In this document: piece by piece, positions 3,325 to 55,000 of the stretch | Numbering within the stretch: the first letter of the stretch is position 1 | Layout: each line of letters opens with the position of its first letter | From: Leucoraja ocellata | Lineage: Eukaryota | Direction of reading: 5' to 3' | Assembly (NCBI GenBank): GCA_036785375.1 | Contig: JAWMAR010000056.1 | Coordinates: forward strand, 4,526,001-4,590,000 | Length of the DNA stretch: 64,000 nt | Program-made: the position numbers and the translations under genes | The notes under the pieces: generated by a model | The model's input: the letters and a program-made list of their open reading frames with translations, nothing else | The model's database searches: none | Told to the model about the DNA's origin: nothing

Positions 3325-3358
3325 AGTCTGAAGAAGGGTCTCCACCCGAAACGTCACT
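3325..3358 (+). ncRNA. Minimal type I hammerhead ribozyme motif in a Penelope-derived repeat
   Basis: agt-CTGAAGA-a-gggt(ctcc)accc-GAAA-cGTC-act: conserved core, stem II, minimal stem III, GUC site and a 3-bp stem I. Confidence 0.65.
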
Positions 3359-3692
3359 TTTTTTTCTCCAGAGATGCTGCCTGACCCACTGAGTTACTCC
3401 AGCATTTTGTGTCTAACTTCAGAGCCATAAGGTGATAGGTGGACACAGATGAGGAGAGGTTGATGGGCAAATGGAAGGAGGTGGGGGAGTGAGGGGTGGA
3501 AATAGCGACAGAGAGAAGATAGATAGATAGATAGATAGATAAATGGAAAGAGTAAGGGAAGGGGAGCTGAGGTCATGTACACGCTCAGCTAGAGAAAAGG
3601 GCATGTGTTAAGAACTGGTACAGTATTGAAGGAAACTAGAACGGAGGAAGTAAAACAATAAAGCATTTAATATGATGAGCTTTGGGTCAATA

Positions 3693-5364
3693 CAGTACCC
3701 TCCATAATGTTTGGGACAAAGACCCATCATTTCTTTATTTGCCTCTGTACCTCACAATTTGAGATTTGTAGTAGGAAAAATCACATGTGGTTAAAGTGCA
3801 CATTGTCAGATTTTAATAAAGGCTATTTTTTATCCATTTCGGTTTCACCATGTAGAAATTACAGCGGGTAGAATTAGAATGTAGAATGTAGAAATTACCC
3901 CCCCCCCCCCCCCCCCCCCCCCCCATTTTCAGGGCACCATAATGTTTGGGACACAGCAATGTCATGTAAACGAAAGTAGTCATGTTTAGTATTTTGTTGC
4001 ATATCCTTTGCATGCGATGACTGCTTGAAATCCGTGATTCATGTCCATCACCAGTTGCCTGGTGTCTTCTCTGGTGATGCTCTGCCAGGCATGTATTGCA
4101 GCCATCTTTAGCTTATGCTCCTTTTGGGGGCTAGTCCCCTTCAGTTTTCTCTTCAGCATATAAAAGGCATGCTCCATTGGGTTCAGATCGGGCGATTGAC
4201 TTGGCCACTCAAGAATTGTCCATTTTTTAGCTTTGAAAAACTCCTTTGTTGCTTCAGCAGTATGTTTGGGATCATTGTCTTGCTGTAGTATGAACCGCCA
4301 GCCAATGAGTTTTGAGGCATTTGTTTGAACTTGAGCAGATAGGACATGTCTATACACTTCAGAATTCATTATGCTACTACCGTCAGCAGTTGTATCATCA
4401 ATGAAGATAAGTGAGCCAGTACCTTCAGCAGCCATACATGTCCAGGCCATAACACCCCCACCACTGTGTTTCACAGATGAGGTGGTATGCTTTGGATCTT
4501 GGGTAGTTCCTTCTCTCCTCCATATTTTGCTCTTGCCATCACTCTGACACAAATTAATCTTCATCACATCTGTCCACAAGATCTTTTTCCAGAACTGCGG
4601 TTGCTCTTTTAAGTACTTCTTGGCAAGCTGTAGCCTGGCCATCCTATTTTTGCAGCTAACCAGTGGTTTGCATCTTGCAGTGTAGCCTCTGTATTTCTGT
4701 TCATGAAGTCTTCTGCAGACAGTGGTCATTGACAAATCCACACCTGATTCCTGAAAAATGTTTCTGATCTGTCGGACTGGTGTTTGGGTTTTTTTCTTTA
4801 TAATAGAGAGAATTCTTCTGTCATCAGCTGTGGAGGTCTTCCTTGGCCTGTCAGTCTCTTTGTGATTAGAAAGCTCACCAGTGCTCTCTTTCTTCTTAAT
4901 ATTGTTCCAAACAGTTGATTTTTGTAAGCCTAAGGTTTGGCTGATGTTTCTAACAGTTTTATTCTTGTTTCTCATTCTCATAATGGCTTCTTTGACTTTC
5001 ATTGGCACAACTTTGGTCCTTATGTTGATAAACAGCAATAAAAGTTTCCAAAGGTGATGGAAAGACTGGATGAAAGACTAGGTGCTGAGAGCTCTCTTAT
5101 ACCTGCATTAAGGAGGCAATTAAACACATCTGAGAAGCCATGTGCCCCACACATTATGGTGCTCTGAAATGGGGGGCTATGTATAAACACAGCTGTAATT
5201 TCTACATGGTGAAACCAAAATGTATATAAATACCCTTTAATAAAATCTGACAATCTGCTCTTTAACCAAACGTGATTTTTTTCTATTACAAATCTCAAAT
5301 TGTGGAGTTCAGAGGCAAATAAATAAATGATAGGTCTTTGTCCCAAACATTATGGAGGGCACTG
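3693..5364 (-). mobile_element. Full-length Tc1/mariner DNA transposon, IR/DR type (1672 bp)
   Basis: TA TSDs at 3691-3692 and 5365-5366, CAGT...ACTG termini, and roughly 220-260 bp inverted repeats. Each repeat has an outer and an inner copy of ccataatgtttgggaca (left 3702-3718 and 3937-3953; right inner about 5141-5160). Confidence 0.96.
3986..5023 (-). CDS. Tc1-family DD34E transposase, unbroken frame, probably inactive
   Basis: N-terminal HTH region, WTD, QQDNDPKH and WPSQSPDLNPME (34 residues between D and E), ending GYATKY*. The likely original ATG is now ATA (5023-5021); the first ATG is at 5002. Confidence 0.9.
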   Translation of the reverse strand: MRTKVVPMKVKEAIMRMRNKNKTVRNISQTLGLQKSTVWNNIKKKESTGELSNHKETDRPRKTSTADDRRILSIIKKKTQTPVRQIRNIFQESGVDLSMTTVCRRLHEQKYRGYTARCKPLVSCKNRMARLQLAKKYLKEQPQFWKKILWTDVMKINLCQSDGKSKIWRREGTTQDPKHTTSSVKHSGGGVMAWTCMAAEGTGSLIFIDDTTADGSSIMNSEVYRHVLSAQVQTNASKLIGWRFILQQDNDPKHTAEATKEFFKAKKWTILEWPSQSPDLNPMEHAFYMLKRKLKGTSPQKEHKLKMAAIHAWQSITREDTRQLVMDMNHGFQAVIACKGYATKY

Positions 5365-6407: not shown

Positions 6408-6595
6408 TAGTAACTCAGTGGGACAGGCAGCATCTCTGGAGAGAAGGAATGGGGGACGTTTTGGCTCGAGACCCTTTCTTCAGACCCAAAATGTCTCCCA
6501 TTCCTTCTCTCCAGAGATGCCTGTCCCACTGAGTTACTCTAGCATTTTGTGTCTACCTTCGATTTAAACCAGCATCTGCAGTTCTTTCTCACACA
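6408..6595. repeat. Foldback pair of Penelope-derived repeats
   Basis: agtaactcagtgggacaggcagcatctctggagagaaggaatggg and its near-complement at 6497-6540. Confidence 0.75.
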
Positions 6596-7002
6596 GGGAA
6601 GTTGGGATGTCATGTTACAGCTGTACAGGACATTGGTAAGGCTTCATTTGGAGTACTGTGGAGTACTTCATTGAGTGCTACATACGGTTCTGGTTTCCCC
6701 ACTGTAGGAAGAGCATCATTGAACTGAAAAAGATGCAAAAAAGATTAACGAGATGTTACCGGGTCTGGTAGGTTTGAATTTTATGAGGAGGGCGGACAGG
6801 CTGAGTCCATTTTCCCTGGAATCTAGAAAGCTGATTGTGACCAAATTGGGGTGACCTATGGGCATTACATAATCAACAAAGATTCCCCTTTCCACATCTG
6901 GCTTACTTTAGACCTTAGAGATACAACGAAGAAACAGGCACTTCAGCCCACTCAGTCCACACCCGCCAGCGACCACCCCGCACACTAACACTACCCTACA
7001 CT

Positions 7003-7480: not shown

Positions 7481-8957
7481 TTCAGATCAATACACTTCAT
7501 CAAACTGAGTTCCTTGTTTCTTACCATTACAACATTTAAGAAACATTTAGACAGGTTTAGAGGGACATGGGCCATACGTAGGCAGGTGGGACTAGCGTAG
7601 ATGGTACATGTTGGTCGGCGTGGGCAAGTTGGGCCAAAGGGTCTGTGTCCACGCTGTATGACTATCACTCTACGTGGTCAACGGGCGGTGGTCGAGATAT
7701 TCCAAATTTCTACGTTCAGCAAATTGCAGTTCAGCACCAAAACAGTTCGATGGTTCACTTGTCTAATGGATTTAAATTGAATATTGCAGGAAAATTTGCT
7801 TAAAGCTGACCTGAGTTAAGGGAAATGGGAAGGAGGGATACAGTTCTCTCCCATTTCTGCGGATGCTGCCTGACTTGCTGAGTATACCAGCATTCCTGTT
7901 GTTATTTTTGATTTGCGGCATCTTCAGTTTTTTTTCATTTTTGAGTTACACAAACATTTGTCTGAGATCTCTTTCTTGCCTGCCTGGGAATGTTGCGATC
8001 TTGCCATATGTGAGACATTTTATTGTTTAAATTACAAAATCCTGATTCATTTTCCAAGGTCTTTCATATTATTCATCTCATTAGCATCTGTGGTGTCGGA
8101 AGGAACGGCAGATGGATGTGGACAGGATGTTTCCACTAGTGGGAGAGTCTAGGGATCGAGATCAGTGCCGCAGAATTGAAGGGCGTTCTTTTAGGAAGGA
8201 GATGAGGAGGAATTTCTTTTGTCAGAGGGTGGTGAATCTGTGGAATTCTTTGTCACAGAAGGCTGTGGTGGCAGAGATAGATAGATTCTTGATTAGTGCA
8301 GGGGTTATGGGGAGAAGGCAGGAGAATGGGTTCGGAGAGAGAGACAGATCAGCCATGATTGAATGGCGGAGTAGACGTGATTGGCCCAAGTGCCTAATTG
8401 TGTTCCTATTACTTATGATCTTATGATGCTAGTATATACAGATATAATGCAGTATTAACTCAGCAGGTCAGGCAGCATCTCTGGAGAAAAGGAGTAGGTG
8501 ATGTTTCGGGTTGGAACCCTTCTTCAGATCTGTGACATCAGACTGGATAAACCTTCGAGTGACATTACCTAACCGCCAACATTTCTAGTTTACTTGCCGT
8601 ATGGAACATTTTGCCTCACTAAAATAACTTTCCAGATTTGAAAGAAAGCTGCGGTTTTTTTAAGATAAATATTAGTCCAAGCTGCAAAATTTTAGTTGTA
8701 TAGTCAGTTATATTTAAACAAGCATTTCAAACCCTTGTATAAACCTTACAACTCCAAGATTTTATTCTTTTGTTTAGGATTTGAAACAATAGGGAAAGCA
8801 TGGTACATTTTAAACAATAGACCAAGTAAAAACCTGAATAAATAACCAAAATGCTGGAAAAATTCAGCAGGGCAGGCAGCATCTGTGGAGGGAAATGGAC
8901 AGGCTACGATTCTGGTTGGGACCCTTTTTCAAACTGATGGAATGGAGGGGAGGAAGC

Positions 8958-9258: not shown

Positions 9259-10071
9259 AGCTGGTAGAGAGACGTGAGGGGGAAGATTGCATTTGCAGTT
9301 TTTTTGGGTCATGATTCCAGAATCGGCAGTCACTTGGGTGTCCAGGTAAATAATTGAAACACATTGATTGATTGATATTTTATTATCACGGTGAAATTCT
9401 TTGTTTTGCATACCATACACTAGGTATGCAAAGAGTCACCATGGATAGGGTGTCGATAAAGGTATAACATAGAAACATAGGAAATAGGTGCAGGAATGGG
9501 CCATTCGGCTCTTCGAGCCTGCACCGCCATTCAATATGATCATGGCTGATCATCCAACTCAGTATCCTGTACCAGCCTTCTCTCCATACCCTCTGATCCC
9601 TTTAGCCACAAGGGCCACATCTAACTCCCTCTTAAATATAGCCAATGAACTGGCCTCAACTACCTTCTGTGGCAGAGAGTTCCAGAGATTCACCACTCTC
9701 TGTGTGAAAAATGATTTCCTCATCGGTCCTAAAAGATTTCCCCCTTATCCTTAAATTTCCCCCTTGTCCATAACATGTTAAATGTAATCCCAATGGACTA
9801 CATTCTCAGGTAGGAAGATTTTACTTGCAGCATAACCTTCCTGACTATGAATCTTCCCTTTTTGCTTTAGTGCCGAATATCTGCTATGTTTCCAAACCAT
9901 TCTGTTTGGGAATGAGGAGGGTTGTTTCTGCCAAATCTACTGGCCAGGGAGTAGCTCGATTGGAAATGAGTTTGGATGGCTCTATTGTGAGGCCCGATCA
10001 AAAATAACAGTGCGCATGATTTGACCTGACAACTCATTGGAAATGTCAGTGTGAACCAATGTCTGACCCAC

Positions 10072-11822: not shown

Positions 11823-11852
11823 GTTCCGTTTACTGAACTATGACCAGCTACC
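11823..11852 (+). other. gli2: 5' UTR part of the gli2 ATG-containing exon (30 nt)
   Basis: A pyrimidine-rich tract and the acceptor tatcttag| end at 11822. The 30-nt distance to the ATG matches my recall of the human GLI2 exon. Confidence 0.75.
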
Positions 11853-11970
11853 ATGGCAGCCCAAGCACAGACCACTGCCTCTGAAAAGAAGGAAGGCAAG
11901 AGCTCCATCATTGAAGGGGATGTCTTCACAGAGACCAACAAAAAGTCGTCAGCCTCTGCAGCATCACGAG
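11853..11970 (+). CDS. gli2: GLI2 (GLI family zinc finger 2, Hedgehog effector), first coding exon, 39 codons + 1 nt (phase-1 intron)
   Basis: ATG in strong Kozak context (gctaccATGG) with an in-frame upstream TGA, and donor GAG|gtacgt at 11970/11971. The peptide MAAQAQTTASEKKEGKSSIIEGDVFTETNKKSSASAASR aligns with my recall of human GLI2 METSASATASEKQEAKSGILEAAGF and zebrafish Gli2a (..STEKKELKPSVLDGSSFTDLPKKPSPTTASR). It fits GLI3 less well. Confidence 0.88.
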
Positions 11971-12004
11971 GTACGTAGGAAAGCTTTGTTTTTTTTCCTC
12001 TGCA

Positions 12005-14397: not shown

Positions 14398-14585
14398 TGG
14401 AGAAACTCAGCGGGTGCAGCAGCATCTATGGAGCGAAGGAAATGGGCAATGTTTTGTGCCGAAACCCTTCTTCAGACCCAAAACGTTGCCTATTTCCTTC
14501 GCTCCATAGATGCTGCTGCACCCGCTGAGTTTCTCCAGCATTTTTGTGTGCCTTCGATTTTCCAGCATCTGCAGTTCCTTCTTAA
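14398..14585. repeat. Foldback (inverted) pair of Penelope-derived terminal repeats
   Basis: Arms 14398-14455 and 14479-14537 are complementary with two G-U pairs. The remains of the hammerhead core lie in the loop. Confidence 0.85.
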
Positions 14586-15805
14586 CCAGCACTTTAGCAT
14601 GGCAGCTTATTATCGAATTTCCATTACAAAGGAAAAAAAAAACCCTCTTTGGAAGAACTCAGTGATTCAAGCAGCTTCCGTGGGGGGAAGAAAGGAATTG
14701 TTGATACTACTGTTCGAGGATCTGGGTCAGGACCCAGTATTTAAGGTCCAGCAGTTTGTGTTTTGCTCCAGATTCCAGCATCCACAGTCTCCTGCATTTC
14801 CATATTCTGTTACAACATAGAAGGAAGCCACTTCAGCCTGCTCGCATTCGTCCCAAATTTTCGCCCTATAAACTATTATTCCCACCAACCTGCCCCATAT
14901 TGTACCCAACAGCGACACACTAGGGGCCGACCGATCCACACGTCTTTGGGATGTGGGAGTAAACTGGAGCACATGGAGAAACAGATGTCGACACGGGGAG
15001 AACAAGCAATCTCTGAGACAGCTGCCGAGGGGATGCTTGAACCTGCGCAGTTTGAGTTGAGAGTAGCATCGACTAACTATACCACAGTTCCATCATGTTG
15101 GAACAGACAGGGCTTTCTTCGTTGCATCTGTTTTGGACAGGTATGGGTATAGTGAAGATTATGTTCCTCTCTATGCTATTTCTGGAATAGTGAATTCTCT
15201 GCTAGGATACTGAAAGGCTTGGATAGAGTGGACGTGGAGACGATGTTTCCACTAGTGGGAGAGCCTACGACTAGAGGTCATAGCCTGAGAGGTCAAAGGA
15301 CGTTCTTTTCGGAAGATGAGGGGGAATTCATTCAGTCAGAAGGTGGTGAATCTGTGGAATTCCTCGCCCCAGAAGGCTGTGGAGGCCAAGTCATTAGATA
15401 TATTTAAGGCAGAGATAGATAGATTCTTGACGAGTAAGGGGGTCAGAGGTTATGGGGAGAAGGCAGGTGAATGGGGTCCTTCAGTCTGAAGTTTTTTTGT
15501 GTCTATCTCCAGTTTAAACCAGCATCCGTAGTTCCTTCCTACAATATTTCAGTGCCATTGTGCTGAAATGAATCTGCCCACCCCCACAGGTAGCAAATCT
15601 CAGACCACAATCAGGCTTGGCCAGGTCGGTGGTTGGGCGAGCTCCACCTCCCTGCTTGAGTGCAACCCCGGGTGCTCATCCATTGAGGAAAAGGCAGCCC
15701 AATTGTGTGGCATGCCATCCCAAACTGAACCATTCACTCCTCCACTATTGGTACACAGTGGCTGCAGTGCGCAGCATTCCAGTTCTTTACCTAGGCTTTC
15801 TTGCA

Positions 15806-19870: not shown

Positions 19871-21305
19871 TCGGTAAACACCTCCCTTGGTACAGGATCA
19901 AGTGGTCACTGTGGTAGCTCTGCTGCTGGAAAGCCCAATGGACAATCTGCCAAAAATTGATGTTTTGCTCTTTTTCTGGGAAAACTACACTACCGTGTGG
20001 CGAAAAAAAATCCGTGGAGATTCAAATCATTTGCTTTCAATTCAAATGAAACAAGGACATCACTGGCAGAGCCAGCATTTTTCATCTATCCCATTACTGG
20101 AGTGGCATAGTGGTAGCGTTGTTGCCTTACAGTGCCAGGTCCGATCCTGACTACGGGTGCTGTCCGCACAGAGTTCGTACGTTCTCCCTGTAACCGCATG
20201 GGTTTTCTCCGTGTGCTCCGGTTTCCTCTCACGCTGCAAAAACGTACAGGTTTGTAGGTTCATTGACTTCTGTAAATTTTCCGTAGGATGGTGCTAGTAT
20301 ATGGGGTGACCGCTGATTGGTGCAAACTCGATGGGCCAAAGGGCCTGTTTTGCACTGTATCTCTAGAAAGTGAACTGAGGAAATAGATCCGCGTAAATTG
20401 ATAGGTCTACAGTTACACCTACATGCAACAGCAAAGAAGGATAAGCAATCTTCTTACGCGGGAAGGAACTGCAGATGCTAGTTTAAACCGAAGATAGACA
20501 CAAAATGCTGGAGTAATTCAGCGAGTCAGGCAGCATCTCTGGAGAAAAGGCTGACGTTTTGGGTTGAGACCCATCTTCGGACCTGATCTTTCATGACAAT
20601 TCAACTGTGTCACAATCATCATTACTGAGCTTAACTTCTCATTACACAGTTGTTTAGTTACGTGAACTTGGCACAGGGAGCATTGGCAGTCAGAAACTTT
20701 TTCCAAGGATGGAAGTATCAAATACAAGACGGCATAGCTTTAAGGTATGAGGTGCAAAGTTTAAAGAAGATGTGTGGAGCAAGTTGGATTACACAGAGGG
20801 TGGCGAGTGCCTGGAATGCGCTGCTGAGGGTGGGAGGTAGATATGACAGTGGCATTTAAGAGAATTTTGATTAGGGCATGGATTTGCAGGGAATGGAGGG
20901 ATATGGATTATGTGCATGCAGATATGAGTCGGTCTTGGCATTAGTTCGGCACTGATATTGTGGACCAAATGGCCTATTCCTATGCTGTACTGTTCTATAT
21001 TCTATATCATATGAATTCCCCTGGCCACTGTGATGGAATTTATATTCATTTCCTAGATTAATGAACCAAGGCTCAAAACACTAGTTTAATAATGTTACCT
21101 CAATTCATCCATATCCATTGAATGGCTCCAAGACATTTTCCCTCCCTATGTCGCAAGTAGGGATTCTGTTCACAATTGTCATACTATAACTATGGTTGTT
21201 AGTTTCAATAGTATAACACACTCAAAATTGCTTCACACACTTCACTGATGACAACTAGATTCTGAGCCAATAATAGAAGAAAGAGGTTTGCCCTTTTCCT
21301 TTTGA

Positions 21306-24234: not shown

Positions 24235-25302
24235 TGGTGGCTCAGCGGTAGAGTTGCTGCCTTACAGCGAATGCAGTGCCGGAGACCCGGGTTCAATCCC
24301 GACCACGGGTACTGTCTGCACGGAGTTTGTACATTCTCCCCATGACCTGCGTGGGTTTTCTCCGAGATCTTCGGTTTCCTCCCACACACCAAAGACGTAC
24401 AGGTATGTAGGTTATTTGGCTTGGTGTATGTGTAAATTGTCCCTAGGATAGTGTTAATAACCATATAACCATATAACAATTACAGCACGGAAACAGGCCA
24501 TCTCGGCCCTACAAGTCCATGCCGAACAAATTTTTTTCCCCTTAGTCCCACCTGCCTGCACTCGTACCATAACCCTCCATTCCCTTCTCATCCATATGCC
24601 TATCCAATTTATTTTTAAATGATACCAATGAACCTGCCTCCACCACTTCCACTGGGAGCTCATTCCACACCGCCACCACTCTCTGCGTAAAGAAGTTCCC
24701 CCTCATATTACCCCTAAACTTCTGTCCCTTAATTCTGAAGTCATGTCCTCTTGTTTGAATCTTCCCTATTCTCAAAGGGAAAAGCTTGTCCACATCAACT
24801 CTGTCTATCCCTGTCATCATTTTAAAGACCTCTATCAGGTCCCCCCTTAACCTTCTGCGCTCCAGAGAATAAAGACCTAACTTATTCAACCTATCTCTGT
24901 AACTTAGTTGTTGAAACCCAGGCAACATTCTAGTAAATCTCCTCTGTACTCTCTCTATTTTGTTGACATCCTTCCTATAATTTGGCGACCAAAATTGTAC
25001 ACCATACTCCAGATTTGATCTCACCAATGCCTTGTACAATTTTAACATTACATCCCAGCTTCTATACTCAATGCTCTGATTTATAAAGGCTAGCATACCA
25101 AAAGCTTTCTTTACCACCCTATCTATATGAGATTCCACCTTCAAGGAACTATGCACGGTTATACCCAGATCTCTCTGTTCAACTGTATTCTTCAATTCCC
25201 TACCATTTACCATGTAATGTGTGGGGATTGCTGGTCAGCACAGACTCGGTGGGCCGAAGGGCCTGTTTCCACGCTGCATCTCTAAACTAAACTAAACTAA
25301 AA
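24235..25302 (+). mobile_element. V-SINE (HE1-like) split by the CR1 at 24459-25214
   Basis: Head and body at 24235-24458, tail at 25215-25302. Confidence 0.88.
24459..25214 (-). mobile_element. Young 5'-truncated CR1 LINE with an open 223-aa ORF2 C-terminus, inserted in a V-SINE
   Basis: RDLGI..LYKALVRSNLEYGVQFWSP..LERRRLRGDLIEVFK..FFTQRVVAVWNELP, (TTATATGG)n tail, TAAT duplicated at 24455-24458 and 25215-25218. Confidence 0.95.
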
Positions 25303-27004
25303 CTCCCACTTGTCAAACTGTCAATCAGCAGACTGAACCTTCACCAGTCTAGTGCAAGTACAGAGGGCCCATTGAATTGAGCAGGAGGATAAGTTTAGAG
25401 GGATATGGGCCAAACACAGGCAGATGGGACTAGCGTCGATGGGACATTCTGATCGGTGTGGGCATGTTGAACCAAAGGGCTTGTTTCTACGTTTATGACT
25501 ATGACTCTAAATGGGTGCAGGAAGAAAGATACATGTACTATAGTCTTTATTTGATTTAACTGTAATTGTATTGGTTGTTTTTTGTTGATTCTAATTTTTA
25601 TTAATGATCTCAATTTTTTTTTTACATTTTATATTTTTTTTATGGTCCTTCATTGATTTTAAATGTTTGTAGCTTCTAAAGATGTTCACAAACATTCAAT
25701 GGCAGTGACAGTGTTGGCCATCGGTCAGTCTGAGACCTGAGCTCACCAGCTGTTAAAACCGTTTTATCAGCACAGCTCGCTACCTTGAGCTGAGAGATGC
25801 CCAATGGTGTATTTCTCTGCCCTGGAACATGCCTGTGGGCTGTGCTTATTTTCCTGGAGCACAATGGAAGAAACTGCTTGACCCTAGAAACAGACAAGCC
25901 ACTGGTCTGAAGAAGGGTCTCGACCCAAAACTTCACCCATTCCTTCTATCCAGAGATGCTGCCTGTCCCGCTGAGTTACTCCAGCATTTTGTGTCGATCT
26001 TCGATTCCCTCCTCCTTTTCCTGGATTTACATGTTCCCCCATTGCCAGAACACATAGGAGCAGAATTAGGCCATTCAGCCCATCAAATCTACTCTGCCAT
26101 TCAATCATGACTGATCTTTTTTTCCCCCTCAACCCCATTCTCCTGCCTTCTCCCCGTAATCTTTGACACTCTTCCTAATCAGGAACCGCCTTGAAAGTAC
26201 CCAGATATCTTGTCCTCCTCCACACCCATCTGTGGCAACACATTCGACAGATTCACCGCACTCTTGGTACAGGGTATTTATTGATCATCAGTGTATGGAG
26301 AAATCCAGGCCAGTTCTGGGAGTCCGGCAATCCTAAATTTAATGGTTATCTTTGTTTATATTACAGTGGACATTTATTTTGTGTATACCCTGCCGAATAG
26401 GCAAGTTCAGGAAGCACTTACTGACTATTCTGAGATCCCCCCCCCCCCCCCCCCCCCGACAAACTGTAAAGACAAGCAAATCATCCGGTTTATTTCCTTG
26501 AAATAGATTTTTCATGACTTTCTCATGGTCATCTGGTCAGAAGCACATTTTTCACGGCCATTCCATTTGGCTGCAGTCATCTAGAGCAGCGTTTAAAGTT
26601 CTATCATCAAAGTCTAGTCCCCAGAGCTATAGAATGCACAAGGAAAGACACCAAACATGGACCTTCCATCACTTTACATTCTCATTTGGGGACAAGAGTT
26701 GAGGGGTTATAAAATCCACAGTGTTGGTTCATGCATTCATCTGAAGTTCTTAATTTATGTGAAGATTTTAACAGATGGAGTAGTGATTTTACTGAAATAG
26801 TGACATTTCTGTCTTCCTCGACCTTTGCCATTGGTATCTCTTCTTTAAAAGAGGGGAGTGAACTTTATCTTCCAAGAGAGCTCACTTTTAACTGAAATTT
26901 CCAAATTGGGACTGGACCCGTCAAACGTGTCCAGTGTTTTCCTTCTTACTCTCATTCACATCAGAATGGTTACCCGCAGATGGTAGCGAATAGTAATATC
27001 GGAT

Positions 27005-27292
27005 GGGACACAAGGTGCTGGAGTAACTCAGCAGGTCAGGCTGCATTTCTGGTGAATGTGGCTAGGTGACGTTTCAAGTGTGGGATTCTTCTTCAGACTG
27101 AAGAAGGGTCCAACCCGAAACATCACCAATCCATGTTCTCCTGAAATGCTGCCTGACCCACTGACTGAAGCAGGCTCCCTCCTCGAAACGCCACCTCTCC
27201 ATGTTCTCCCTGAAAGTTGCCTGACCCGCTGAGTTACTCCAGCATTTTGTGTCTTTATTTTGGAAAACCTGCATCTGCATTTCCTCGTGTCT
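27005..27292. repeat. Head-to-head plus tandem Penelope-derived repeats
   Basis: A cttcag-a-ctgaag junction at about 27091-27103 is followed by two tandem plus-strand units. Confidence 0.75.
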
Positions 27293-29651: not shown

Positions 29652-30765
29652 CATTGTCACCTTCCCCTCAGCTAACAATGAACCATTCTACATTTCCTTA
29701 TCACCATCCGCTTTGATCTGTTGTTTTCACACCTTACCCTTCTATAAGGGTAAAAAGGGGGCGCTGTCTTGTGCGCGGCTGCCCTGCCAGCAGTTGTCTG
29801 TCTTTTCACCGTTTTATTTTTATTTTTAGTTAGTTAAAGTGTTTTGTTTGGAGGTCTAGACTTTTTTGTGTGTGGGGGGGGGGGGAAGGGGGAAATTGCC
29901 TTTCAGGGTCCCTACCTGGTCGGAGAGGCAGCTTTTCTCCGGGCTGCAGCTTCGACCCGTCCTCGCGGCCTACCAGCGGGCCTGGAGCGGCGTTTCCTGT
30001 CGCGGACCGCCAGAACCTCGGCTTCGGCGGCGGCACAGCGCTGGAGCGCTATCGTGGAGCGGGCGATGCCTTGCCTGGGTCGCCGCGCTGGAGCTGAGAC
30101 CGCCGGGTAAAACATCGCGGAGCTGCGGGACTGTCGAGCGGCCAGCTGCGGGCGGCGGCGCTGAGCTTTACACCGGGAGCCTGGGATCTCGCGACGAGAT
30201 CGCCAGTTGTGGAGCTCCATCCGGCGTGGCCTTGTCGGCTTCGGAAGCCGCGGCCTCCAGTATGGAGACGGCCGTTCCAGGGTTCCCTTGCCGCTGTGAG
30301 GACTTTCCCGACTCCGGGGCACCACCACCCGGCGAGAACGGTCAGGAACATCGGGCCTCCGTAGAGACAACTGTGGAGGCCTCAATAGGCCCGACTATGG
30401 GTGAACTGGGGTTGGGGACTGGACTTTGTGCCTTCCCTCATGGTGGGAACCATTGTGGGGGGATGTTCTTTGTGTTTAAGACTCTCATTGGTGTTATGCC
30501 TGTATTCTTTTGTGTACTGCAAAATGGCAAAAAGCATTTCACTTCATTACACCTCGGTGTATGTGAATGTGACTAATAAAAACCTTTGAATACTTTGAAT
30601 ATACCTCTATGTCTCCCTCTCCCCTGACTCTGTCTGAAGAAGGGTCTCGACCCAAAACGTCACCCATTCCTTCTCTCCAGAGATACTGCCTGGCCCACTG
30701 AGTTACTCCAGCGTTTTGTGTCTGTTGTTGGTCTAATCTAGCATCTGCAGTTCCTTCCTACACAT
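29652..30765 (+). mobile_element. Penelope-like 3' UTR/terminal repeat split by a GC-rich insertion (about 29746-30600)
   Basis: 29652-29745 and 30601-30765 together match the reverse complement of 42716-42965. Hammerhead-like core at 30634-30661. Confidence 0.75.
29746..30600 (+). mobile_element. GC/CpG-rich non-autonomous retroelement with a Rex1/Babar-type tail
   Basis: It interrupts a Penelope fragment. Layout: short GC head, T-rich tract, G-run, CpG-rich body, then catttcac..gtgactaataaa plus a (ctttgaa)-type tail. Confidence 0.7.
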
Positions 30766-32995: not shown

Positions 32996-33195
32996 TGCAG
33001 ATGCAGGTTTAAACCAAAGATAGACACAAAAAGCTGGAGTAACTCAGCAGGTCAAGCAGCAACTCTGGAGAAAAGGAATGAATAGGTGACATTTCGAGTC
33101 TGAAGAAGGGTCTCGACCCGAAACTTCACCTATTCCTTTTCTCCAGAGATGCTGTCTGACCCGCTGAGTTATTCCAGTTTTTTTGTGTCTATCTT
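32996..33195. repeat. Foldback pair of Penelope-derived repeats around a hammerhead core (about 33098-33130)
   Basis: Inverted arms of about 80 bp (aagatagacacaaaaagctggagtaactcagc... / ...gctgagttattccagtttttttgtgtctatctt) flank ctgaagaagggtctcgacccgaaac. Confidence 0.8.
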
Positions 33196-41600: not shown

Positions 41601-42715
41601 AGGAAACCTAGATCCCTCTGTTCATCAACATCACTTACTGTGCTGCCATTTACCAGACATGTTCTATCCTTATCTAACCTCAAAATGCAGAACCTTTGAA
41701 GTTCTGGAGAGAGACTGCATGGACAAGGATTGCTTTCTTCGGAACACTGAGGGAAGAATTGATTGAAGTTTGTAAAGTTCTGAGAAACCGAACAAAAAGA
41801 CCTATTTCCTTCAGCAGACAGACCAGCAATTAAGCACATCAGTTTATGCTAATTGGGAGACAGATTAAAAGTGGGGAGCCAGAGGAAAAAATGCTGTTTG
41901 CTCAACTCGTGTTGGAGTTCTGAAACTCATTACCTGAGAGGCTGATTGAAATAAGTATTATAATGTGTTTCAGGCGAAGTTGGTTAAATAAATCGGGGAG
42001 AAACAGGCAGTTAGTTATGATGGGGCTATCTTAAATCAGACCTTGCTGGAATTTTTCCCCTTTACCATGTATCTGTACACTGTGGATGGCTCAATTGTAA
42101 TCATGTATTGTCTTTCCGCTGACTGGTTAGCATTGCCTAGAGTGTGTAGGTAATGGATGAGAAAGTGGGATAGCATAGAACCGGCTTGGACAGTGGGCCG
42201 AAGGGTCTGTTTCCACACTGTATTTCTAGACTAAACTAAAGTCGACAGCAGAGAAATGGATCCCACATTATTTCTATCTTGTCCACGACAAACTTCTTGC
42301 CCATCTATACTGATCACATTTCCGTGCATTTGGTCTGTATCCTTGCCTGTGTTGGAGGTTGGCTTAATTCCTCTTAAACGTAGTGACTGAATTTGATTCT
42401 TCCACCTCCTTCACCGTGTTCCACATGGCTTGATTGTAATGTTCAAGAAGGTACTGCAGATGCTGGAAAATCGAAGGTAGACAAAATTGCTGGAGAAACT
42501 CAGTGGGTACGACAGCATCTATGGAGCGAAGGAAATAGGCAACATTTCCGGTCGAAACCCTTCTTCAGCCTGACGTAATCATATGTCATTGTAATCATAT
42601 ACTGTCTTTCTGTTCTCTGGATATATGCTTTTCTCTGTACCTCGGTACACGTGACAATCAACAAAACGAAACAAACTAAATAATAGAGTGCAATGAAGTA
42701 GGGTTCAGAGGTGGA

Positions 42716-43139
42716 GGAAGGAACTGCAGATGCTGGTTTACACCGAAGATAGACACAAAATGCTAGAGTGACTCATCGGGACAGGCAGCATCCCTAGAAA
42801 GAAGGAATGGGCGACGTTTCGGGTCAAGACCCTTCTTCCGTCTGAGAGTCAGGGTAGGGGGAGACACAGAGATAAAGAAGGGTAATGTGTAAATACGAGA
42901 CATCAAAGGAGATGCCGCTCAAGGAAAACAGAATAGATCATTGTTAGCGAGGAGAAGGTGACAACGAAGCATACAGAGATAAAATTTAATCAGGGGAACA
43001 GTTAGACTGGTGGGAGAACAAGGAAGGGGGAGAGAGAGAGAGAGAAAGCAAGGCTTACTTGAGGTTAGAGAAATCAATATTCATACCGCTGGGTTGTAAG
43101 CTGCCCAAGCGAAATACAAGGAGCTGTTCCTCCAATTTG
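42716..43139 (-). mobile_element. Penelope-like element (PLE) 3' fragment: GIY-YIG endonuclease C-terminus, 3' UTR and hammerhead-bearing terminal repeat
   Basis: The minus strand reads KLEEQLLVFRLGSLQPSGMNIDFSNLK*, typical of a PLE GIY-YIG end. It is followed by UTR and then a (mutated) hammerhead core at about 42809-42843. Confidence 0.8.
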
Positions 43140-44529
43140 TATTGAGCACATCTTTTGGGCTGAATGGCCTGCCTTAGGGCTACAAATCTTACGTAAATGC
43201 CATTTTATTTATTTGACCCCAAAAGCTGCAATTTGCCGAGAGACTTTTTCCAGTTATAAATTTTGCTGATTAGCATTTTTGGAATGAAATGCAATAAATT
43301 CAGAGAAAGGTTAAGATGTTTTTTTGTTACAGTGACTGAAGCCAAAATCCCAAGGTTCCAGACGGTGCAGTAATCTGTAATTAAAACTGCATATTTTGTA
43401 AACAGAAAGACTACATTTTGTACTGACTAAGCTAGTGTCAGTAATATTCAAATGCTTGCTCGCTTGTGTGACAAGCTTGATGTTTCCCCCACATTTAGTC
43501 ACCAGTGTGTGTAGGAAGGAACTGCAGATGCTGGTTTAAACCGAAGATAGACACAAAAAGCTGGAGTAACTAAGCGGGACTATGGGTGACATTTCATAGA
43601 TCATAGAAACATAGAAAATAGGTGCAGGAGTAGGCCATTCGGCCCTTCGAGCCCGCACTGCCATTCAATATGATCATGGCTGATCATCCAACTCAGTATC
43701 CCATCCCTGCCTTCTCTCCATACCCCCTAATCCCTTTAGCCACAAGGGCCACATCTAACTCCCTCTTAAATATAGCCAATGAACTGGCCTCAACTACCTT
43801 CTGTGGCAGAGAATTCCACAGATTCACCACTCTCTGTGTGAAAAATGATTTTCTCATCTCGGTCCTAAAAGACTTCCCTCTTATCCTTAAACTATGACCC
43901 CTTGTTCTGGACTTCCCCAACATTGGGAATATTTCGGGTCGAGTCTGAGGAAGGGTCTCGATCCGAAACGTTGTCCCGTTGAGTTACTCCAGCTTTTTGT
44001 GTCTATCTTCAGTTATTCACCAGTTTGTTGGTCTCAGACCTGGTTCCAAGCTGACCGCTAGTATTAGAAGCAAAATACAGCAGATGCGAGAAATCCAAAA
44101 TAAAAATAGAAAATGCTGCCTCTGGTTGTCTGACCTAAATGTTTGCAGCACATCTTGGTTCCACTTGTACTGTTAGGCCTAATAGGAAAGATTCAAAATG
44201 TACAGCAGAGTGAAGCATGACGAGACATTAGGATGCTTTAGGATGAAGCACATAGCTGATGAGTTCTGTGTACAGTTGTCAAGATTTCATTCATAAATTT
44301 TGCTTGACGTTTCTGTTTTATTGTGGTTTACATTCAGGACAAACAGATGTTGTGATATGCGGTGAAGAAGGTAAGCTGCTGCCAAGCTGGTGGCCATGTG
44401 GCTAGTGGCAAGAATTGCTCCCTCAAAGCAGTGAAGTTGTGCCACATTCAACAAATCACCATAAATCATGCTCCTGAGTGCAGGCTCGAAGGGCCGAATG
44501 GCCTACTCCTGCACCTATTTTCTATGCTC

Positions 44530-45118: not shown

Positions 45119-45769
45119 ATCCTGACAACCACTGCCGAAAACCACAGGGCTTTCTCCTGTTAGCGGATGTGTTCCCCATCACTCCTACACTGTGTATTTG
45201 ATCACTTAGTGAAACAAGGAGGTATTCTTTTTTTACCAGGGTTCCGACAAATTAATAATTCTTGAGGTTTATCATTACAATTTAGAAGGAACCGCTTCTT
45301 GAGATTTCTCCCCAGGAATCATTCCCTGAAGTCCATTATTGTTTATGTAGATTATATAGGACCTGTAATGGTATTCACACATTGGAAACAAAAAGGTAGA
45401 TATAATATCTGTACAGCAGAAGCACTTGTGTCTGTCAGCACTATATTTCACTAAAAATCGTTTGATCAGAAATCACCTCGGGTATTACCTCTAGGTAATG
45501 ACATGGTGTATATGGGAAACTATGTGGATCAGTATATCAAAGTCTTCAGTGATAAATCTAGGGAGGCAGATTTATGCTTGAATATATTCCTGAAGAAGAA
45601 TATAATTCCATTTCTGCCTAAGCTTGGCAATATTGGAATGGGATAACATGCATCTTTATGGGCAACACCTCTCCTCATTTTTAATCCACATATCTATTTC
45701 TACACAAGGATAGACACAAAATGCTGGCGTAACTCAGCGGGACAGCCAGCATCTATGGAGAGAAGGAAC

Positions 45770-45804
45770 GGGTGACGTTTCAGGTCGAGACCCTTCTTCA
45801 GACT
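45770..45804 (-). ncRNA. Minimal type I hammerhead ribozyme motif in a Penelope-derived repeat
   Basis: The reverse complement reads agt-CTGAAGA-a-gggtc(tc)gacct-GAAA-cGTC-accc. Confidence 0.6.
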
Positions 45805-50069: not shown

Positions 50070-50934
50070 ATCGCCCCCGACAGATGGTTCGACTGCCCAG
50101 ACCGCGGGAGAAATGGATAAAGAGGAAGAAGATTGGACTTTATTGCCTTCCATCACAGTGAGGAATGTGGGGAATCCGCTGTGATGGATGTTTACGTTAA
50201 CTTCCCGACGGGCCGCACGGCCAGAAGGATTCCCGGCGCGACGCGGCTGAGGACTGGGAACGCGACTGGAGGCCTTTATCGAGGCGCCGCGGTCTCGATG
50301 CCTCCCGGAACGCCACGTAGAAGCCCGGGTTGGGGCCCGGCCGGGGCCTTGCGGATAGAAGCATGGGTCGGGCGAAGCGGCCGCTGCTGGAACCCGGATC
50401 GGCACCGCAGAGGCGTGAAGGATGGCGTCAACAGGGGTGAGGCCTCGATGATGCTAGTGGTGAAGACTCGCGACGATGGGGCCTCAGCGGTGGTGAAACC
50501 TCGCGGGTCGAACCGCGGTCGACGTACGATGAGAGAGTGGAGAGCCACCGCGAGGGGGGGGGGGAAGAACAATGGAGGACCCGGCATGGGGGGACCGTCG
50601 TGAGGGGAGAGGGGGGGAACAATGGACAATGGGGGGGGGGACAAAGGACAATGGGGACCTGTCGTGGGGGGAGCCGCTGGGGGGGCGGGGGGGAATGAGG
50701 ACAAAAGGGGGAGCCAGCTTGCTTTGTAACTTTGTCAGCTGCTATATGTATACATTACAAAGAATCTCACCGTGCCTAGTCACATGTGACAATAAAGTAT
50801 TCCTATTCCTATTCCTATCTTTTATGTATTTGTGTCTTATTGCTTTATTCATCATATGGCTGTATGGTAATTCGCATATCACTGTACCTTAATTGGTACA
50901 TGTGACTATTGAGACGTTTGAACTCTTTGAAACC
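50070..50934 (+). mobile_element. Nested non-autonomous retroelements inside a V-SINE (outer 50070-50934, inner CpG-rich 50204-50818)
   Basis: Outer TSD tttaattg at 50062-50069 and 50935-50942. The inner element ends gtgacaataaa(gtattc/ctattc)n and is flanked by ctt. Confidence 0.75.
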
Positions 50935-51977
50935 TTTAATTGGCTTGGTATAAATGTAAATTGTCCCTTGTTTTGTGTAGGATAGTGCTAGTGTACGGGG
51001 ATTGGTGCGGACTTGGTGGGCCGAAGGGCCTGTTTCCACGCTGTATCTCTAAACTAAACTAAATTTCATAGTTACAATCTTTCACTTTATACAGATACAA
51101 TCTTTGCAGCAACCTGTTGTTGTATTTATAGTTGCTTGCATCATCACCATAAACTACCCTGAGCTTCATGCGAACAAGGAATTTCATTTCACCTGGTGTA
51201 TATGACAGTAAACTAACCTGAATCTGATTCAACAAATAATTTATAGTCGATTAATTCCTGTGCAGGTGATCTTTCTGCCTAACAGACAGACGTGAGAATC
51301 AATTAGTAGACATCAAAGTCCCCCGGGCAGCAGTGAGATCATTTGGATTAGCAGTGTTATATGTTCATAAATTCAAATGTTCTCGGAGCAGAATTAGGCT
51401 ATTCAGCCCATCTACTCCGCCATGGCTGATCTATCTTTCCTTCTCAACTCCAATCTCCTGCCTTCTCCCCATAACCCCAGACACCCATACTAAACAAGGG
51501 ATTGTCCGGAGGTAGATGGTAGGAGTGGAGAGGTCTGGTATGGGGGAGTTGCCTAGAACATAAGAACACAAGAAATAAGAGAAGGAATAGCCATTTGCTG
51601 TTCAATAAAATCATTGACTGATCTTTTATGTCATCGCTACTTTCCTGTACTGACCTCATTTTTCTGATTCTCCCAATACCACAAAATACCATCACCCTTT
51701 ATCTTGTATGTATTTTATACTTGGGTAGAGAATTCTGAAGATTCACAGCTCTCAGGGGATGGAAATGTCTTCTTAGCTCATTCCCGAAAAAGCTGGCTAC
51801 TTATTCTGATGTTGTGGCTGTTGGCTTCAGGCTCCCCAGCCAGGACAACCTCAGCCTGCACCTACCATGTCAAGTTTTGTAAGAATTATGTACGTTTCAA
51901 TGAGATCCTCTCTCACTCTGACCTAACTGAAGAATACACACTTGGTTTGTATCAACTTTGCTCCAATGACACTGAGT

Positions 51978-52070
51978 TCCATAGATGCTGCTGCACCCGC
52001 TGAGTTTCTCCAGCATTTTTGTGTCCATAGATGCTGCTGCACCCGCTGAGTTTCTCCAGCATTTTTGTGT
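51978..52070 (+). repeat. 46-bp tandem duplication of a Penelope-derived unit
   Basis: ccatagatgctgctgcacccgctgagtttctccagcatttttgtgt occurs twice, and the region is flanked by ctttgctccaa at 51956-51966 and 52073-52083. Confidence 0.85.
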
Positions 52071-55000
52071 ACCTTTGCTCCAAAGACTAAATTTGTTCAT
52101 CGCAAATATTGCCTTCCTTAAGCCAAAAGTCAAGAGTGTTTTGTTGTCAAAATGGAACAATGAAATCCTTACTTGCAGCAGGAGCACAAGAGGTTTGTAA
52201 ACCCAGTGGGGGGACTAGATGTATTCCAAGCGGAGACCTACCAGAGTCCAATGTAATTATAGAACGGAATTTTTCATGTTGTACCTGTATTCGAATGATC
52301 ATAAATTCACCAACTAGAAAGCGATCCTGACCTACCATCTACCTCATTGGAGACCCTCGGTCTAAATTTAATTGTACTTCACTGGACTTTATCTTGCACT
52401 GAACATCATTCCCTTTATATTGTATCTGTTGTACAGCTTTATTGTCATTGCGTCTATTCTTTCCGCTGACTGGATGGCACGCAACAAAAAAGCATTTTGC
52501 TGTGCCTCGGCCCACGCGACACTAAGCTGAACTAAGCTGAACTACACTAGAAAAATTAAACTAAACTAAAACCAATGTACCGTTGAGTAAGAAACCTAAA
52601 TGTAAATCTAAACCTAATGCACTCTGTGATTTGGAGCTCAACCACAGGGAGGAGCCAGTTGAAGAGAGCCTGATGGTGAATTTTCCTGTGGTGGCCCATT
52701 ACCACAATGGGTCCTGACTCATTTCTTAAAGATCATCAAGGCTCCAACATCGGCTGATTCCAGATATGGATAATGAGTTCATGGATTTATGACTAACATT
52801 CTTCACCGTCAAGATTTAGGCCTTCAGTGGGGGATCCAAAAGCCTTATATTTAAGTTGGATATATTGCCTTCTCCATTTCAGTCAGGGGTGGCATCGAGG
52901 CTAGCTTAAATAGGTTGCTGTAAGATGGAGCCCAGAGCACTCTCATCAAAGAAGAATCATAGTTCTTCAAAGTATTCCCACTGACTGCTGTCCTTGGTGG
53001 GTTCACCCTGGTTCATTTCCCTCATTGAATTGGGGCTTGGTGTTTGTAGTGGTTTATTATTGTCATGTGTACAGTGGAAAAGTTTTTTGTGCTATCCACT
53101 TAAATCAAACTGTAGATTGACACAAAGTAACTCAGCGGGTCAGGCAGCATCGCAGGAGAAAATGAATAGGTGACGTGTTGAGACCCTTCCCCACTATACA
53201 TGAGTATAATCAAGCATTACACAAGTACAACAGGCAACACAAAGAGAAAATAGTGCTGAATACAGTGTTAAACGTTATAACTACAGAAAAAGTGCAGATT
53301 AAAAAAAACTGCAAAGGCTGCAATGAGGTAGGTTGGAAGATTGGGTTCTACATCCTTAGCTTATGTGAGGTCTGTTAACAGCATGTAAGAATCTGTTCCT
53401 GAATCTAGTAGTGCATGATTTCAAGCTTTTGTATTTAATGCCCTACGGGAGAGGGGATGACCAGGGTGTAAATAGGCCTTGATGGTGCTGCCTTAGATGT
53501 TTGGACCTTAGATGGCTTTTACAAAATGCAAGAGCCCATGTATGTCGTGGCTGTCAACAGGTTACTGAGTCTCCTGGCCTCACTCCATCCACCATCTGTG
53601 CCTCAGGTCACAGGTTACACAGTCAATGAACCGCAGCCCTCTGCATCGGTCAGCTGTACTTGTTTTGGCATTCCTCCACGCTCGCTCGCTCGATTCCTCA
53701 AGTTCATTCCAATATTTATTTATTGTTCTATCCACCCAGCATTATCGCACTGTCCAAAACTGGAACATCTTGCATACTGTGGTACATGTTCAAAGAACTC
53801 TGGAGAATAGCGCAGAAGTACAGAGGCACACATTCACACCTTGATGTCTGTCGGCTGTGGGTGAATTGGTAGCACTTTCCCCTCTGGGACAGAGGCTACA
53901 TGTCCCCCTTCCCAAAAGAAAGCACAGAAACATACTGAGGAAGGGTTACAGGGACGACAGCTTAGGTGGAACATGCAGGAAGATGAATTGACGTGTCACC
54001 TTACACTTAAACTGCTCCAAAAGACAATAGACAATAGGTGCAGGGATAGGTCATTTGGCCCTTCGAGCCAGCACCATCATTCAATGTGATCATAACTGAT
54101 CATCCCCAATCAGCACCCCGTTCCTGCCTTCTCCCCATATCCCCTATCGGACTTTACTGGCTTTATCTTGCACTTGGAGGAGATGTTGATTTTAGGATTT
54201 ATATAGAAATGATTTTATTTAATCCAACTTCATTGACGCATTTAAATGGAGAGGTCATCACATGTAATTGCAGAGTTATAGACAGGTAAACACTCATCAA
54301 TATTTAGATAGAGAGTAGCCAGAAGGAACTGCAGGTTTCTTGGACGAGTCACACCAAGGACGAGTCACACCCCGGCCACTCCTTCTTCTCCCCTCTCCCT
54401 TCGGACTAAATGTACAGAAGTGTGAAAATGCACATCTTCAGATTCAGGGACAGTTGCTTCCCAGCTGGTATTAGACAACTGAAACATCCTACCAACACCC
54501 TGAACTACTATCTACCTGATTGAAGACCCTCGGACTTTACTGGCTTCATCTTGCACTATACACTATTCACGTTACTCCATTTATCATTACTCTATTGTAT
54601 TTGTGTATTATCTTTCCGCTGACTGGTTAGCACGCAACAAAAGCTTTTCATTGTACCTCGGTACACATGACAATAAACTCAGCTGCAAGTTTACAAATAA
54701 AGACACTAAATCAGTCTGAAAAAGGGACTTCTACCCGAAACATCACCTATCCACATTCTCCACAGATGCTGCTTGACCCGCTGATTTATTCCCACAATTT
54801 GTGGCATGTTTCACTCATGAATATTTCTGCCTCTCCTGTCTTCTGATAAACGTACCAGATCTGGCAGCATTAGATGCCATTAACCAGCAGGGTTATATAT
54901 TCAAGCAGGAATCACTGGAGGATGGAGAAGCAGGAGACTAGGCAGATATCCGGCCCTTCCTCTCGTCATTCACAACCAACCATGCTCCCTTCTCCTGAGC

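What the first reader, a model, noticed from the sequence alone, without database searches (positions are those of the whole stretch)
3325..54750. Dispersed family of short Penelope-derived repeats carrying minimal hammerhead ribozymes throughout the gli2 introns
Seen: about 15 copies of a 100-150 bp repeat whose 5' part is CTGAAGA-a-[GGG..CCC hairpin]-GAAAC-GTC/GTT. Copies: + 3325, 25903, 27097, 30634, 33098, 43944, 54714; - 6455, 8497, 14443, 20552, 27065, 42537, 42809, 45770. At 42716-43139 the same repeat is attached to a GIY-YIG C-terminus, which ties it to a Penelope-like element. Stem II loops differ between copies while the pairing is kept. Established: PLE terminal repeats carry minimal type I hammerheads that are thought to cleave as dimers. 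Inference: most copies here are ORF-less ribozyme modules, either severely truncated PLEs or a retrozyme-like family. The intact sense copy at 3325 would sit in gli2 pre-mRNA.
Basis: partly seen in the sequence, partly recalled or inferred. Interest (0 to 1): 0.7.

Follow-up and report, generated by a model that had tools for sequence, protein, structure and literature searches.

The report
Penelope retrotransposon tips carrying decayed hammerheads
These short repeats are copied end-pieces of a known kind of jumping gene (Penelope-like) that litter this whole fish genome, not just gli2; they carry a known self-cutting RNA motif that is broken in most copies and likely harmless to the gene, and their sharp common start likely marks where the jumping gene's RNA begins.

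Summary
All 15 named copies exist, but only 3 keep every hammerhead core base plus stem II (3325+, 43944+, 45770-). The repeat is the terminal repeat and 5' leader of an RT + GIY-YIG Penelope-like element (PLE) with the Neptune-type CX4CxxC linker, still present full length. It matches the published minimal hammerhead of fish PLEs. It is not gli2-specific: 0.53 pieces/kb here, 0.44/kb in 800 kb sampled elsewhere, 91,526 exact cores genome-wide. I found little stem covariation, no loss of sense copies in gli2, no short-only subfamily and no array of intact cores, so 'retrozyme' and 'cuts gli2 pre-mRNA' are not supported. The ends are informative: short copies are TSD-flanked insertions that start at TCAGT just before the core (56 of 156, against 5 at the cut site), end at two fixed sites, and form inverted pairs with one long and one short arm (55 of 65). 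Likely they are run-off cDNAs of uncut RNA starting at an initiator that overlaps the ribozyme. This scan has noted the same family and its sharp start many times before.

The parts
3324..3420 (+). solo short copy, subfamily A, intact minimal hammerhead core, stem I 3 bp; starts at -4, short 3' end (+96); upstream of the first coding exon
6409..6595 (.). head-to-head inverted pair (6409-6485 -, 6483-6595 +), core broken (G12, stem II)
8446..8535 (-). short copy, 15.2-16.2 pair broken
11823..11970 (+). first coding exon of a GLI-family gene (MAAQAQTTASEKKEGKSS...), ATG at 11853; gli2 paralogue label rests on recalled motifs
   Evidence: downstream zinc-finger exon hits PDB 2GLI at E 1.6e-31
14398..14588 (.). 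head-to-head inverted pair, subfamily B, core broken
20461..20582 (-). solo short copy with tail, core broken (CCGAAGA, G12)
25905..26003 (+). solo short copy, core broken (G12, helix III)
27007..27285 (.). inverted pair joined at the TCAG-T-CTGA palindrome (27007-27101 -, 27093-27164 +) plus a further + piece; cores broken
30602..30764 (+). copy with 34 nt of upstream UTR and tail; G12 broken
32996..33195 (.). head-to-head inverted pair; + arm has a broken helix III
42440..42573 (-). solo copy with tail, subfamily B type; stem II broken
42711..43144 (-). 5'-truncated PLE: last 29 codons of the GIY-YIG domain (43058-43144), 3' UTR, hammerhead (broken, CGGAAGA), leader and tail
43942..44013 (+). 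sense copy in the intron with intact core (CUGAGGA, GUU) but an internal deletion and an inverted stub directly upstream
45709..45804 (-). solo copy with intact core, antisense to the GLI gene
54711..54803 (+). older short copy, core broken (CTGAAAA)
1611..1708 (+). piece without the hammerhead; similar pieces at 15495-15543, 40596-40657, 43508-43580, 52024-52075, 53126-53189

Best explanation
The repeats are short, TSD-flanked insertions of the hammerhead-bearing leader of an RT + GIY-YIG Penelope-like element, likely made when the element's reverse transcriptase primes 95 or 130 bases into an uncut RNA and likely runs off that RNA's 5' end at TCAGT, and they likely do not cut host RNA. Shown: identity with the terminal repeat of full-length elements, target-site duplications, two fixed 3' ends, a fixed 5' edge just before CUGAAGA rather than at the cut site, inverted pairs with one long and one short arm, decay of the core. 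Inferred: internal priming at the two 3' ends (as shown in vitro for the anole PLE); that TCAGT is the transcription start (about 0.5); that inverted pairs arise when both DNA ends are primed, one at each site, and the two cDNAs are joined head to head; that the ribozyme works, if at all, only weakly, as a dimer or with protein help, in the parent element's RNA.
For: Parent: L060 is a partial tandem with a 4062-bp unit, hammerhead 163 nt before the ATG; L058 has a 1212-aa ORF with RVT_1 (E 3.9e-6) and GIY-YIG (E 0.0094), both just under Pfam cut-offs, plus CHCKRCNTC linker. Both subfamilies and the intermediate cluster have GIY-YIG-attached members (17 of 85, 24 of 50, 2 of 17). 5' ends: of 156 clean unpaired copies 56 start at -5..+1 of C3 and 5 at +25..+31, the cut site (p 6e-12); upstream flanks are unique in 106 of 116. 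TSD of 8 nt or more at the junction in 20 of 81 solos against 7 of 1603 controls. 3' ends peak at +90-96 and +123-131. 95 head-to-head pairs among 583 pieces; 55 of 65 classifiable are long+short (32 expected, p 6e-9), 30 of 55 with TSD against 6 of 2153. A G precedes the start in 20 of 35 copies starting at A(-3) and 13 of 22 starting at G(-2) (p 2e-4, 4e-3), as expected from a cap or end-of-template C addition. TCAGTCT fits Inr 7 of 7; MTE 9 of 12 (A) and 8 of 12 (B) at +18 (consensus from PMC1475891). Inert copies: core CpGs decay 27% against 22% for other CpGs in A; intact cores 5 sense, 7 antisense in 252 kb of the gene; stem I probability 0.005 for copy 3325 in context; RNA reads of related species run through the module into host sequence with no pile-up of ends.
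Against: No direct 5'-end data. Genome-wide the G bias is weaker (G 17,700, A 15,377, T 11,890, C 136,146 before AGTCTGAAGAAGGG) and inverted junctions inflate G. The promoter matches are degenerate and post hoc; MTE in B is only one better than neighbouring registers, DPE is not beyond chance. 45 of 156 clean solos start further in (+32 and beyond), so ordinary truncation also occurs. Non-CpG catalytic positions in A are less mutated than downstream ones (5.7% against 8.7%, p 4e-4; not in B, p 0.42), which may be selection or an alignment bias, and pair II.1 has 7 double changes that keep pairing. TCAG/T also fits a 3' splice site behind a pyrimidine tract. RNA runs were from related species and ordinary RNA-seq can miss cleavage.
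Confidence: 0.8

Rival explanations
1. Independent non-autonomous retrozyme or SINE-like family that replicates through self-cleaved, circular RNA.
For: 105 of 119 unselected modules have no GIY-YIG end within 400 nt; fixed length; own TSDs; about 1.5 million pieces by extrapolation.
Against: No short-only cluster; ends are not at the cut site; 22 head-to-tail neighbours, none an array of intact cores, 8 from one minisatellite that lacks CUGANGA. Some short copies may still have served as secondary templates; not tested.
Confidence: 0.07
2. Same origin as the best explanation, but the 5' edge is not a transcription start: it is a 3' splice site (CAG/T after a pyrimidine tract) or a stop or fold-back point set by the TCAG-T-CTGA palindrome.
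For: In D. virilis Penelope the intron ends at the 5' end of helix I (PMC4209133). TCAG is kept across subfamilies with different UTRs of 93-233 nt. Many inverted junctions use GTC or TCAG microhomology; co-folding favours a duplex of this palindrome.
Against: No shared first exon upstream of solos and TSDs abut the edge; none of the 15 best-supported joints in RNA reads is a GT..AG skip ending there (178 more not shown). Simple fold-back of one cDNA does not explain a tail on the folded-back arm (short arm is the more complete in 34, long arm in 17, tie 4).
Confidence: 0.35
3. Intact sense copies such as 3325 act as ribozymes in gli2 pre-mRNA and affect its processing.
For: 3325 keeps every core base and has a 3-bp stem I; 91,526 exact cores in the genome could pair in trans through ACGU.
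Against: No loop for helix III, so a monomer cannot fold; published minimal hammerheads show no monomer activity and low dimer activity (PMC4209133); nearest intact sense partner is 40 kb away; no strand bias (76 sense, 74 antisense pieces; 5 against 7 intact), though this test is small.
Confidence: 0.04

Closest known systems
[quoted passage not shown]
   Same: Type I core, extra base between 9 and 10.1, G10.1-C11.1, palindromic 15.2-16.2 with no loop III, thousands of dispersed single motifs attributed to truncated PLEs, opposite-strand pairs close together.
   Different: Stem II 4 bp (7-8 bp and helix I 4-5 bp described for Schistosoma), stem I only 2 bp, GUU cut site in subfamily B; 91,526 exact cores against about 4,000 and 9,000 reported for coelacanth and Xenopus; no cartilaginous fish named in the parts read.
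Neptune-type EN+ PLEs: pLTR, partial tandem, inverted 5'-truncated copy, 30-40-bp tail (PMC8557442, PMC3846280; passages read)
   Same: RT then CX2-5CxxC linker then GIY-YIG with internal CxxC; partial tandems; inverted pLTRs with palindromic junction; tail on one end; TSDs of 8-16 nt.
   Different: Here most insertions are only the 95-135-nt leader with a sharp 5' edge; clade not tested by a tree (Nematis shares the linker).
Poseidon PAc of Anolis (Frangieh et al. 2024, PMC11167929; parts 1-2 of 4 read)
   Same: Two internal RT start sites that match the tail; both DNA strands extended; uncut RNA is the template; no RNA ends at the ribozyme site.
   Different: In PAc the ORF starts at stem II; here the ATG lies 163 nt after C3, behind the tail.
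Non-LTR retrozymes (bioRxiv 10.64898/2026.07.22.740005; parts 1-3 of 5 read)
   Same: pLTR-derived, ORF-less, type I hammerhead; monomers dispersed.
   Different: Defined there as tandem arrays with an intact hammerhead in each unit; none found here in 1.23 Mb.

Membership tests
EN+ Penelope-like element | single ORF with RT and C-terminal GIY-YIG | tested here: met
   L058, 1212 aa from ATG; RVT_1 E 3.9e-6, GIY-YIG E 0.0094 (both under cut-off); L005 passes GIY-YIG cut-off
EN+ Penelope-like element | partial tandem forming pLTRs, inverted 5' copy, 30-40-bp tail | tested here: met
   L060 tandem; 95 inverted pairs; 3' ends about 35 nt apart
Neptune clade | CX2-5CxxC linker before GIY-YIG | tested here: met
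   CHCKRCNTC at 1079, CVRCSRC at 1119 of the L058 ORF
Neptune clade | RT phylogeny (versus Nematis) | not tested
   no reference PLE proteins held
PLE min-HHR | CUGANGA and GAAA boxes, NUH site, extra base 9/10.1, G10.1-C11.1 | tested here: met
   subfamily consensus A and B; in individual copies 3 of 15 named, 44 of 219 sampled
PLE min-HHR | palindromic helix III for dimer folding | tested here: met
   AAACGU with ACGU palindrome in A and B; energy folding does not return the hammerhead dimer
PLE min-HHR | helix I of 4-5 bp | tested here: not met
   2 bp in 111 of 219, 4 or more in 9; a 2-bp helix I is described for the D. virilis variant (PMC4209133)
PLE min-HHR | covariation in stems | tested here: inconclusive
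   A versus B differ by U-A to U.G in stems I and II, C to U at site 17 and one loop base, all compatible but one-sided; within subfamilies pairing is near the independent expectation
PLE min-HHR | self-cleavage as dimer or with protein | not testable with these tools
   needs in vitro assay
non-LTR retrozyme | tandem units each with an intact hammerhead | tested here: not met
   0 such arrays among 22 head-to-tail neighbours in 1.23 Mb; whole genome not scanned
non-LTR retrozyme | unit ends at the cut site; circular RNA | tested here: not met
   5 of 156 start near the cut site; circles not testable in poly(A) reads

The most novel reading that the evidence does not exclude
The hammerhead core doubles as the element's internal Pol II promoter (Inr at TCAGT, MTE across stem II and GAAAC), so the RNA starts three bases before CUGAAGA; the million-odd short copies are strong-stop-like cDNAs of the capped, uncut leader, and the long+short inverted pairs record two priming events by a dimeric PLE protein at one double-strand break. 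The ribozyme would then be a decapping switch on the first 31 bases rather than a means of releasing the transposition template.
Probability: 0.3. Interest if true: 0.62.

Novelty: new member of a known kind. Interest (0 to 1): 0.3.

Why it matters
As a family it is ordinary: minimal hammerheads in PLE terminal repeats, dispersed truncated copies, inverted repeats and tails are all published. Its value is as a very large natural record of PLE insertion, a mechanism that is still open: fixed 5' edge, two 3' sites and long+short pairs make testable predictions about where transcription starts, why the ribozyme is kept although the template is uncut, and how inverted pLTRs form. It also shows that some 90,000 intact cores are tolerated in a vertebrate genome.

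Tried and rejected
Rfam scan at E<=10: no hammerhead model matched; the miRNA and CRE matches are the inverted pairs folding as hairpins. Host-exon capture through CAG/T splicing: rejected for solos, since flanks are unique and TSDs abut the 5' edge; 1 of 45 flanks matched the element itself. gli2 enrichment and loss of sense copies: not found. Short-only subfamily and retrozyme arrays: not found. Other PLE families with a different hammerhead, which would give real covariation: none among 44 descriptor hits. Co-folding as a test of the dimer: uninformative, because the energy model does not score the catalytic junction. Run search: no RNA holder listed for the element itself; the four raw-read runs laid are of two related species, and the strand excess in the two single-cell runs could not be read because library direction is unknown. 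The 5' non-coding exon of the GLI gene was not located, so membership of copy 3325 in the pre-mRNA stays open. Lunse et al. (RNA Biol 14:1499) is not held; seen only as a title in a reference list, and it may list cartilaginous-fish examples. Literature searches for this family in cartilaginous fishes found no paper on it, but the library lacks most subscription journals and Repbase and Dfam, and no supplements were read. Dropped rows: the first 33 kb of the upstream sample were masked as a duplicate; 'clean' means identity >=88% and 3' end >=+85 (256 of 583 pieces).
Full report
Observation. The motif is beyond chance: 13 loose core hits against 5.6 expected, and 44 hits of a full minimal-hammerhead descriptor in 1.23 Mb of this genome, all in this repeat, against 0 in three shuffles. 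Rfam has no matching hammerhead model. Only 3 of the 15 keep the whole core and stem II: 3325 (+), 43944 (+) and 45770 (-). In the first, wider sample 44 of 219 copies that span the motif were intact.

Host gene. The window is G000:C56:4526001-4590000 in a 3.44-Gb genome; a skate or ray is my reading from recalled repeat content and earlier notes, not tested. A GLI-family gene lies on the + strand. Its first coding exon is at 11823-11970 and the next recognisable exon is 147 kb downstream; a zinc-finger exon matches PDB 2GLI at E 1.6e-31. The label gli2 rests on recalled motifs. Copies 3325, 6455 and 8497 lie upstream of the ATG exon, probably in a first intron since that exon has a splice acceptor, but the 5' exon was not located.

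What the repeat is. At 42711-43144 (-) the repeat follows the last 29 codons of an ORF that is 21 of 26 identical to the end of a GIY-YIG ORF passing Pfam's cut-off. Walking through the genome gave full elements: L058 has a 1212-aa ORF with RVT_1 and GIY-YIG (both slightly under Pfam cut-offs) and a CHCKRCNTC linker, the Neptune/Nematis mark (PMC8557442, passages). L060 is a partial tandem with a 4062-bp unit; the hammerhead lies about 120-230 nt after the stop codon depending on subfamily and 163 nt before the next ATG. Subfamily A reads TCAGT CTGAAGA A GGGT-CTCG-ACCC GAAAC GTC ACC, B reads TCAGT CTGAAGA A GGGT-TTCG-GCCC GAAAC GTT GCC. This is the min-HHR of Cervera and De la Pena (PMC4209133, parts 1-2 of 4 read): extra base before stem II, G10.1-C11.1, palindromic ACGU and no loop III. 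Helix I is only 2 bp in most copies (111 of 219).

Not special to gli2. 228 pieces in 431 kb around the gene (0.53/kb) against 355 in 80 stretches of 10 kb from other contigs (0.44/kb; 4.4 +/- 3.5 per 10 kb), about 3% of bases. That extrapolates to roughly 1.5 million pieces; 91,526 exact cores were counted genome-wide, 0 for the reversed control. Within 252 kb of the gene there are 76 sense and 74 antisense pieces, and 5 sense and 7 antisense strict cores; the test is small.

Selection on copies. Stem II pairs are kept about as often as independent mutation predicts in 179 A and 54 B copies (for example II.2: 144 observed, 143.9 expected; II.1: 153 against 146.7). Core CpG bases decay at 27% against 22% for other CpGs in A, 7% against 12% in B. 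Non-CpG catalytic bases are less mutated than downstream ones in A (5.7% against 8.7%, p 4e-4) but not in B (p 0.42); the filter favoured ungapped 5' matches, so this is not clean evidence either way. The four differences between A and B in the motif all keep the fold but are one-sided, which fits selection on the parent elements, not on the copies.

The ends. Numbering from C3 = 0, 3' ends peak at +90-96 and +123-131, the 30-40-bp tail of PLEs. Of 156 clean unpaired copies 56 begin at -5..+1, 5 at +25..+31 where a cleaved RNA would begin (p 6e-12), 27 extend more than 8 nt upstream and 45 begin at +32 or later. Upstream flanks are unique in 106 of 116, and 20 of 81 have a TSD of 8 nt or more at the junction, against 7 of 1603 controls. 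So these are separate insertions of an uncut leader with a natural 5' edge. Only 14 of 119 unselected modules are attached to a GIY-YIG end, but every cluster of four or more has such members. Of 583 pieces, 190 form 95 head-to-head pairs; 92 are of one subfamily, 55 of 65 classifiable pairs have one tailed and one untailed arm (32 expected, p 6e-9), and 30 of 55 are framed by a TSD (6 of 2153 controls). No array of intact cores was seen among 22 head-to-tail neighbours.

Mechanism. Frangieh et al. (PMC11167929, parts 1-2 of 4 read) showed for the anole PLE that RT starts at two internal sites matching the tail, that both DNA strands are extended, that the protein is predicted to be a dimer, and that ribozyme mutants insert normally. 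I infer the same here: priming at +93 or +130 and copying to the RNA's 5' end gives the short copies; priming from both DNA ends gives the long+short pairs; longer copies need read-through tandem RNA or a template jump. Three hints place the RNA start at A(-3): the edge itself; a G before the start in 20 of 35 and 13 of 22 unpaired copies (p 2e-4, 4e-3), weaker genome-wide (G 39% of non-C); and promoter-like sequence in register, Inr 7 of 7, MTE 9 of 12 in A and 8 of 12 in B, DPE not beyond chance (consensus from PMC1475891, passages). D. virilis Penelope has an internal Inr/DPE promoter (PMC2377424, section 15 and passages), and an Inr-like TCACT was noted in a rotifer pLTR (PMC3846280, passages). 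A start at -3 would also explain why helix I cannot exceed 3 bp. The rival is a 3' splice site or a palindrome-driven stop at the same place; in D. virilis the intron ends at helix I.

RNA. Raw reads of four runs from two related species, laid on L060:1330-2330, cover the short module at about 700-7800x per direction and the ORF start at under 70x; 74-92% of laid reads run on into unlike sequence, and no place has a pile-up of molecule ends. The module is thus mostly read as a passenger in host transcripts. These libraries neither map start sites nor exclude slow cleavage.

Comparison and verdict. The family meets the tested features of EN+ PLEs and of min-HHRs except helix I length, and fails the tandem criterion for non-LTR retrozymes (bioRxiv 10.64898/2026.07.22.740005, parts 1-3 of 5 read, which includes one chondrichthyan). 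Searches of the held library found no paper on this family in cartilaginous fishes, with the gaps noted elsewhere. This scan's own notes report the same family and the same sharp edge many times, 69 notes fitting the look-up in this genome alone; I reached my reading before seeing them. New member of a known kind, interest 0.3; the promoter-in-ribozyme reading is the part worth testing.

Noticed in passing
window 41228-44352 and 50506-64000 (continuing to about 82.5 kb in window numbering): This part of the long intron is duplicated about 250 kb upstream on the same contig at 95-98% identity: a segmental duplication or an uncollapsed haplotype.
   Followed up: partly
window 3986-5077 (-): Uninterrupted 363-codon Tc1-type transposase frame (HTH_Tnp_Tc3_2 E 1e-14, DDE_3 E 2e-10), upstream of the first coding exon; possibly a young element.
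   Followed up: partly
window 11970 onward; G000:C56 about 4684900: The intron after the first coding exon is about 147 kb, and the gene spans more than 250 kb before the second zinc finger.
   Followed up: partly
L111:6925-7370: Minisatellite of 66-bp units derived from the leader (+20 to +87), starting at GAAACGTC but lacking CUGANGA, so not a retrozyme.
   Followed up: partly
L058 ORF, L060 2560-2870: The PLE ORF is unusually long (1212 aa) with a Pro-rich N-terminal region and a variable number of 9-residue repeats (GIAAGPDL type) that keep the frame.
   Followed up: no
L065 3581-7836: Long inverted PLE insertion: two 1.8-kb arms 99.6% identical, likely very recent.
   Followed up: no
window, e.g. 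1827-2036, 24242-24445, 59000-59209; 9463-9724, 43597-43893: Two other abundant repeat families: a tRNA-headed SINE-like repeat (families D1, D2, D5, D8; weak tRNA match at 24231) and 3' ends of a CR1/L2-like LINE (D3, D4, D6; ORF pieces such as 24542-25234); names recalled.
   Followed up: no
L060:1330-1670 in runs X22, X23: Single-cell reads cover the ORF end and UTR with a strong excess in one direction (about 750 against 60 at 1466-1499); library direction unknown, so sense or antisense transcription could not be told.
   Followed up: no
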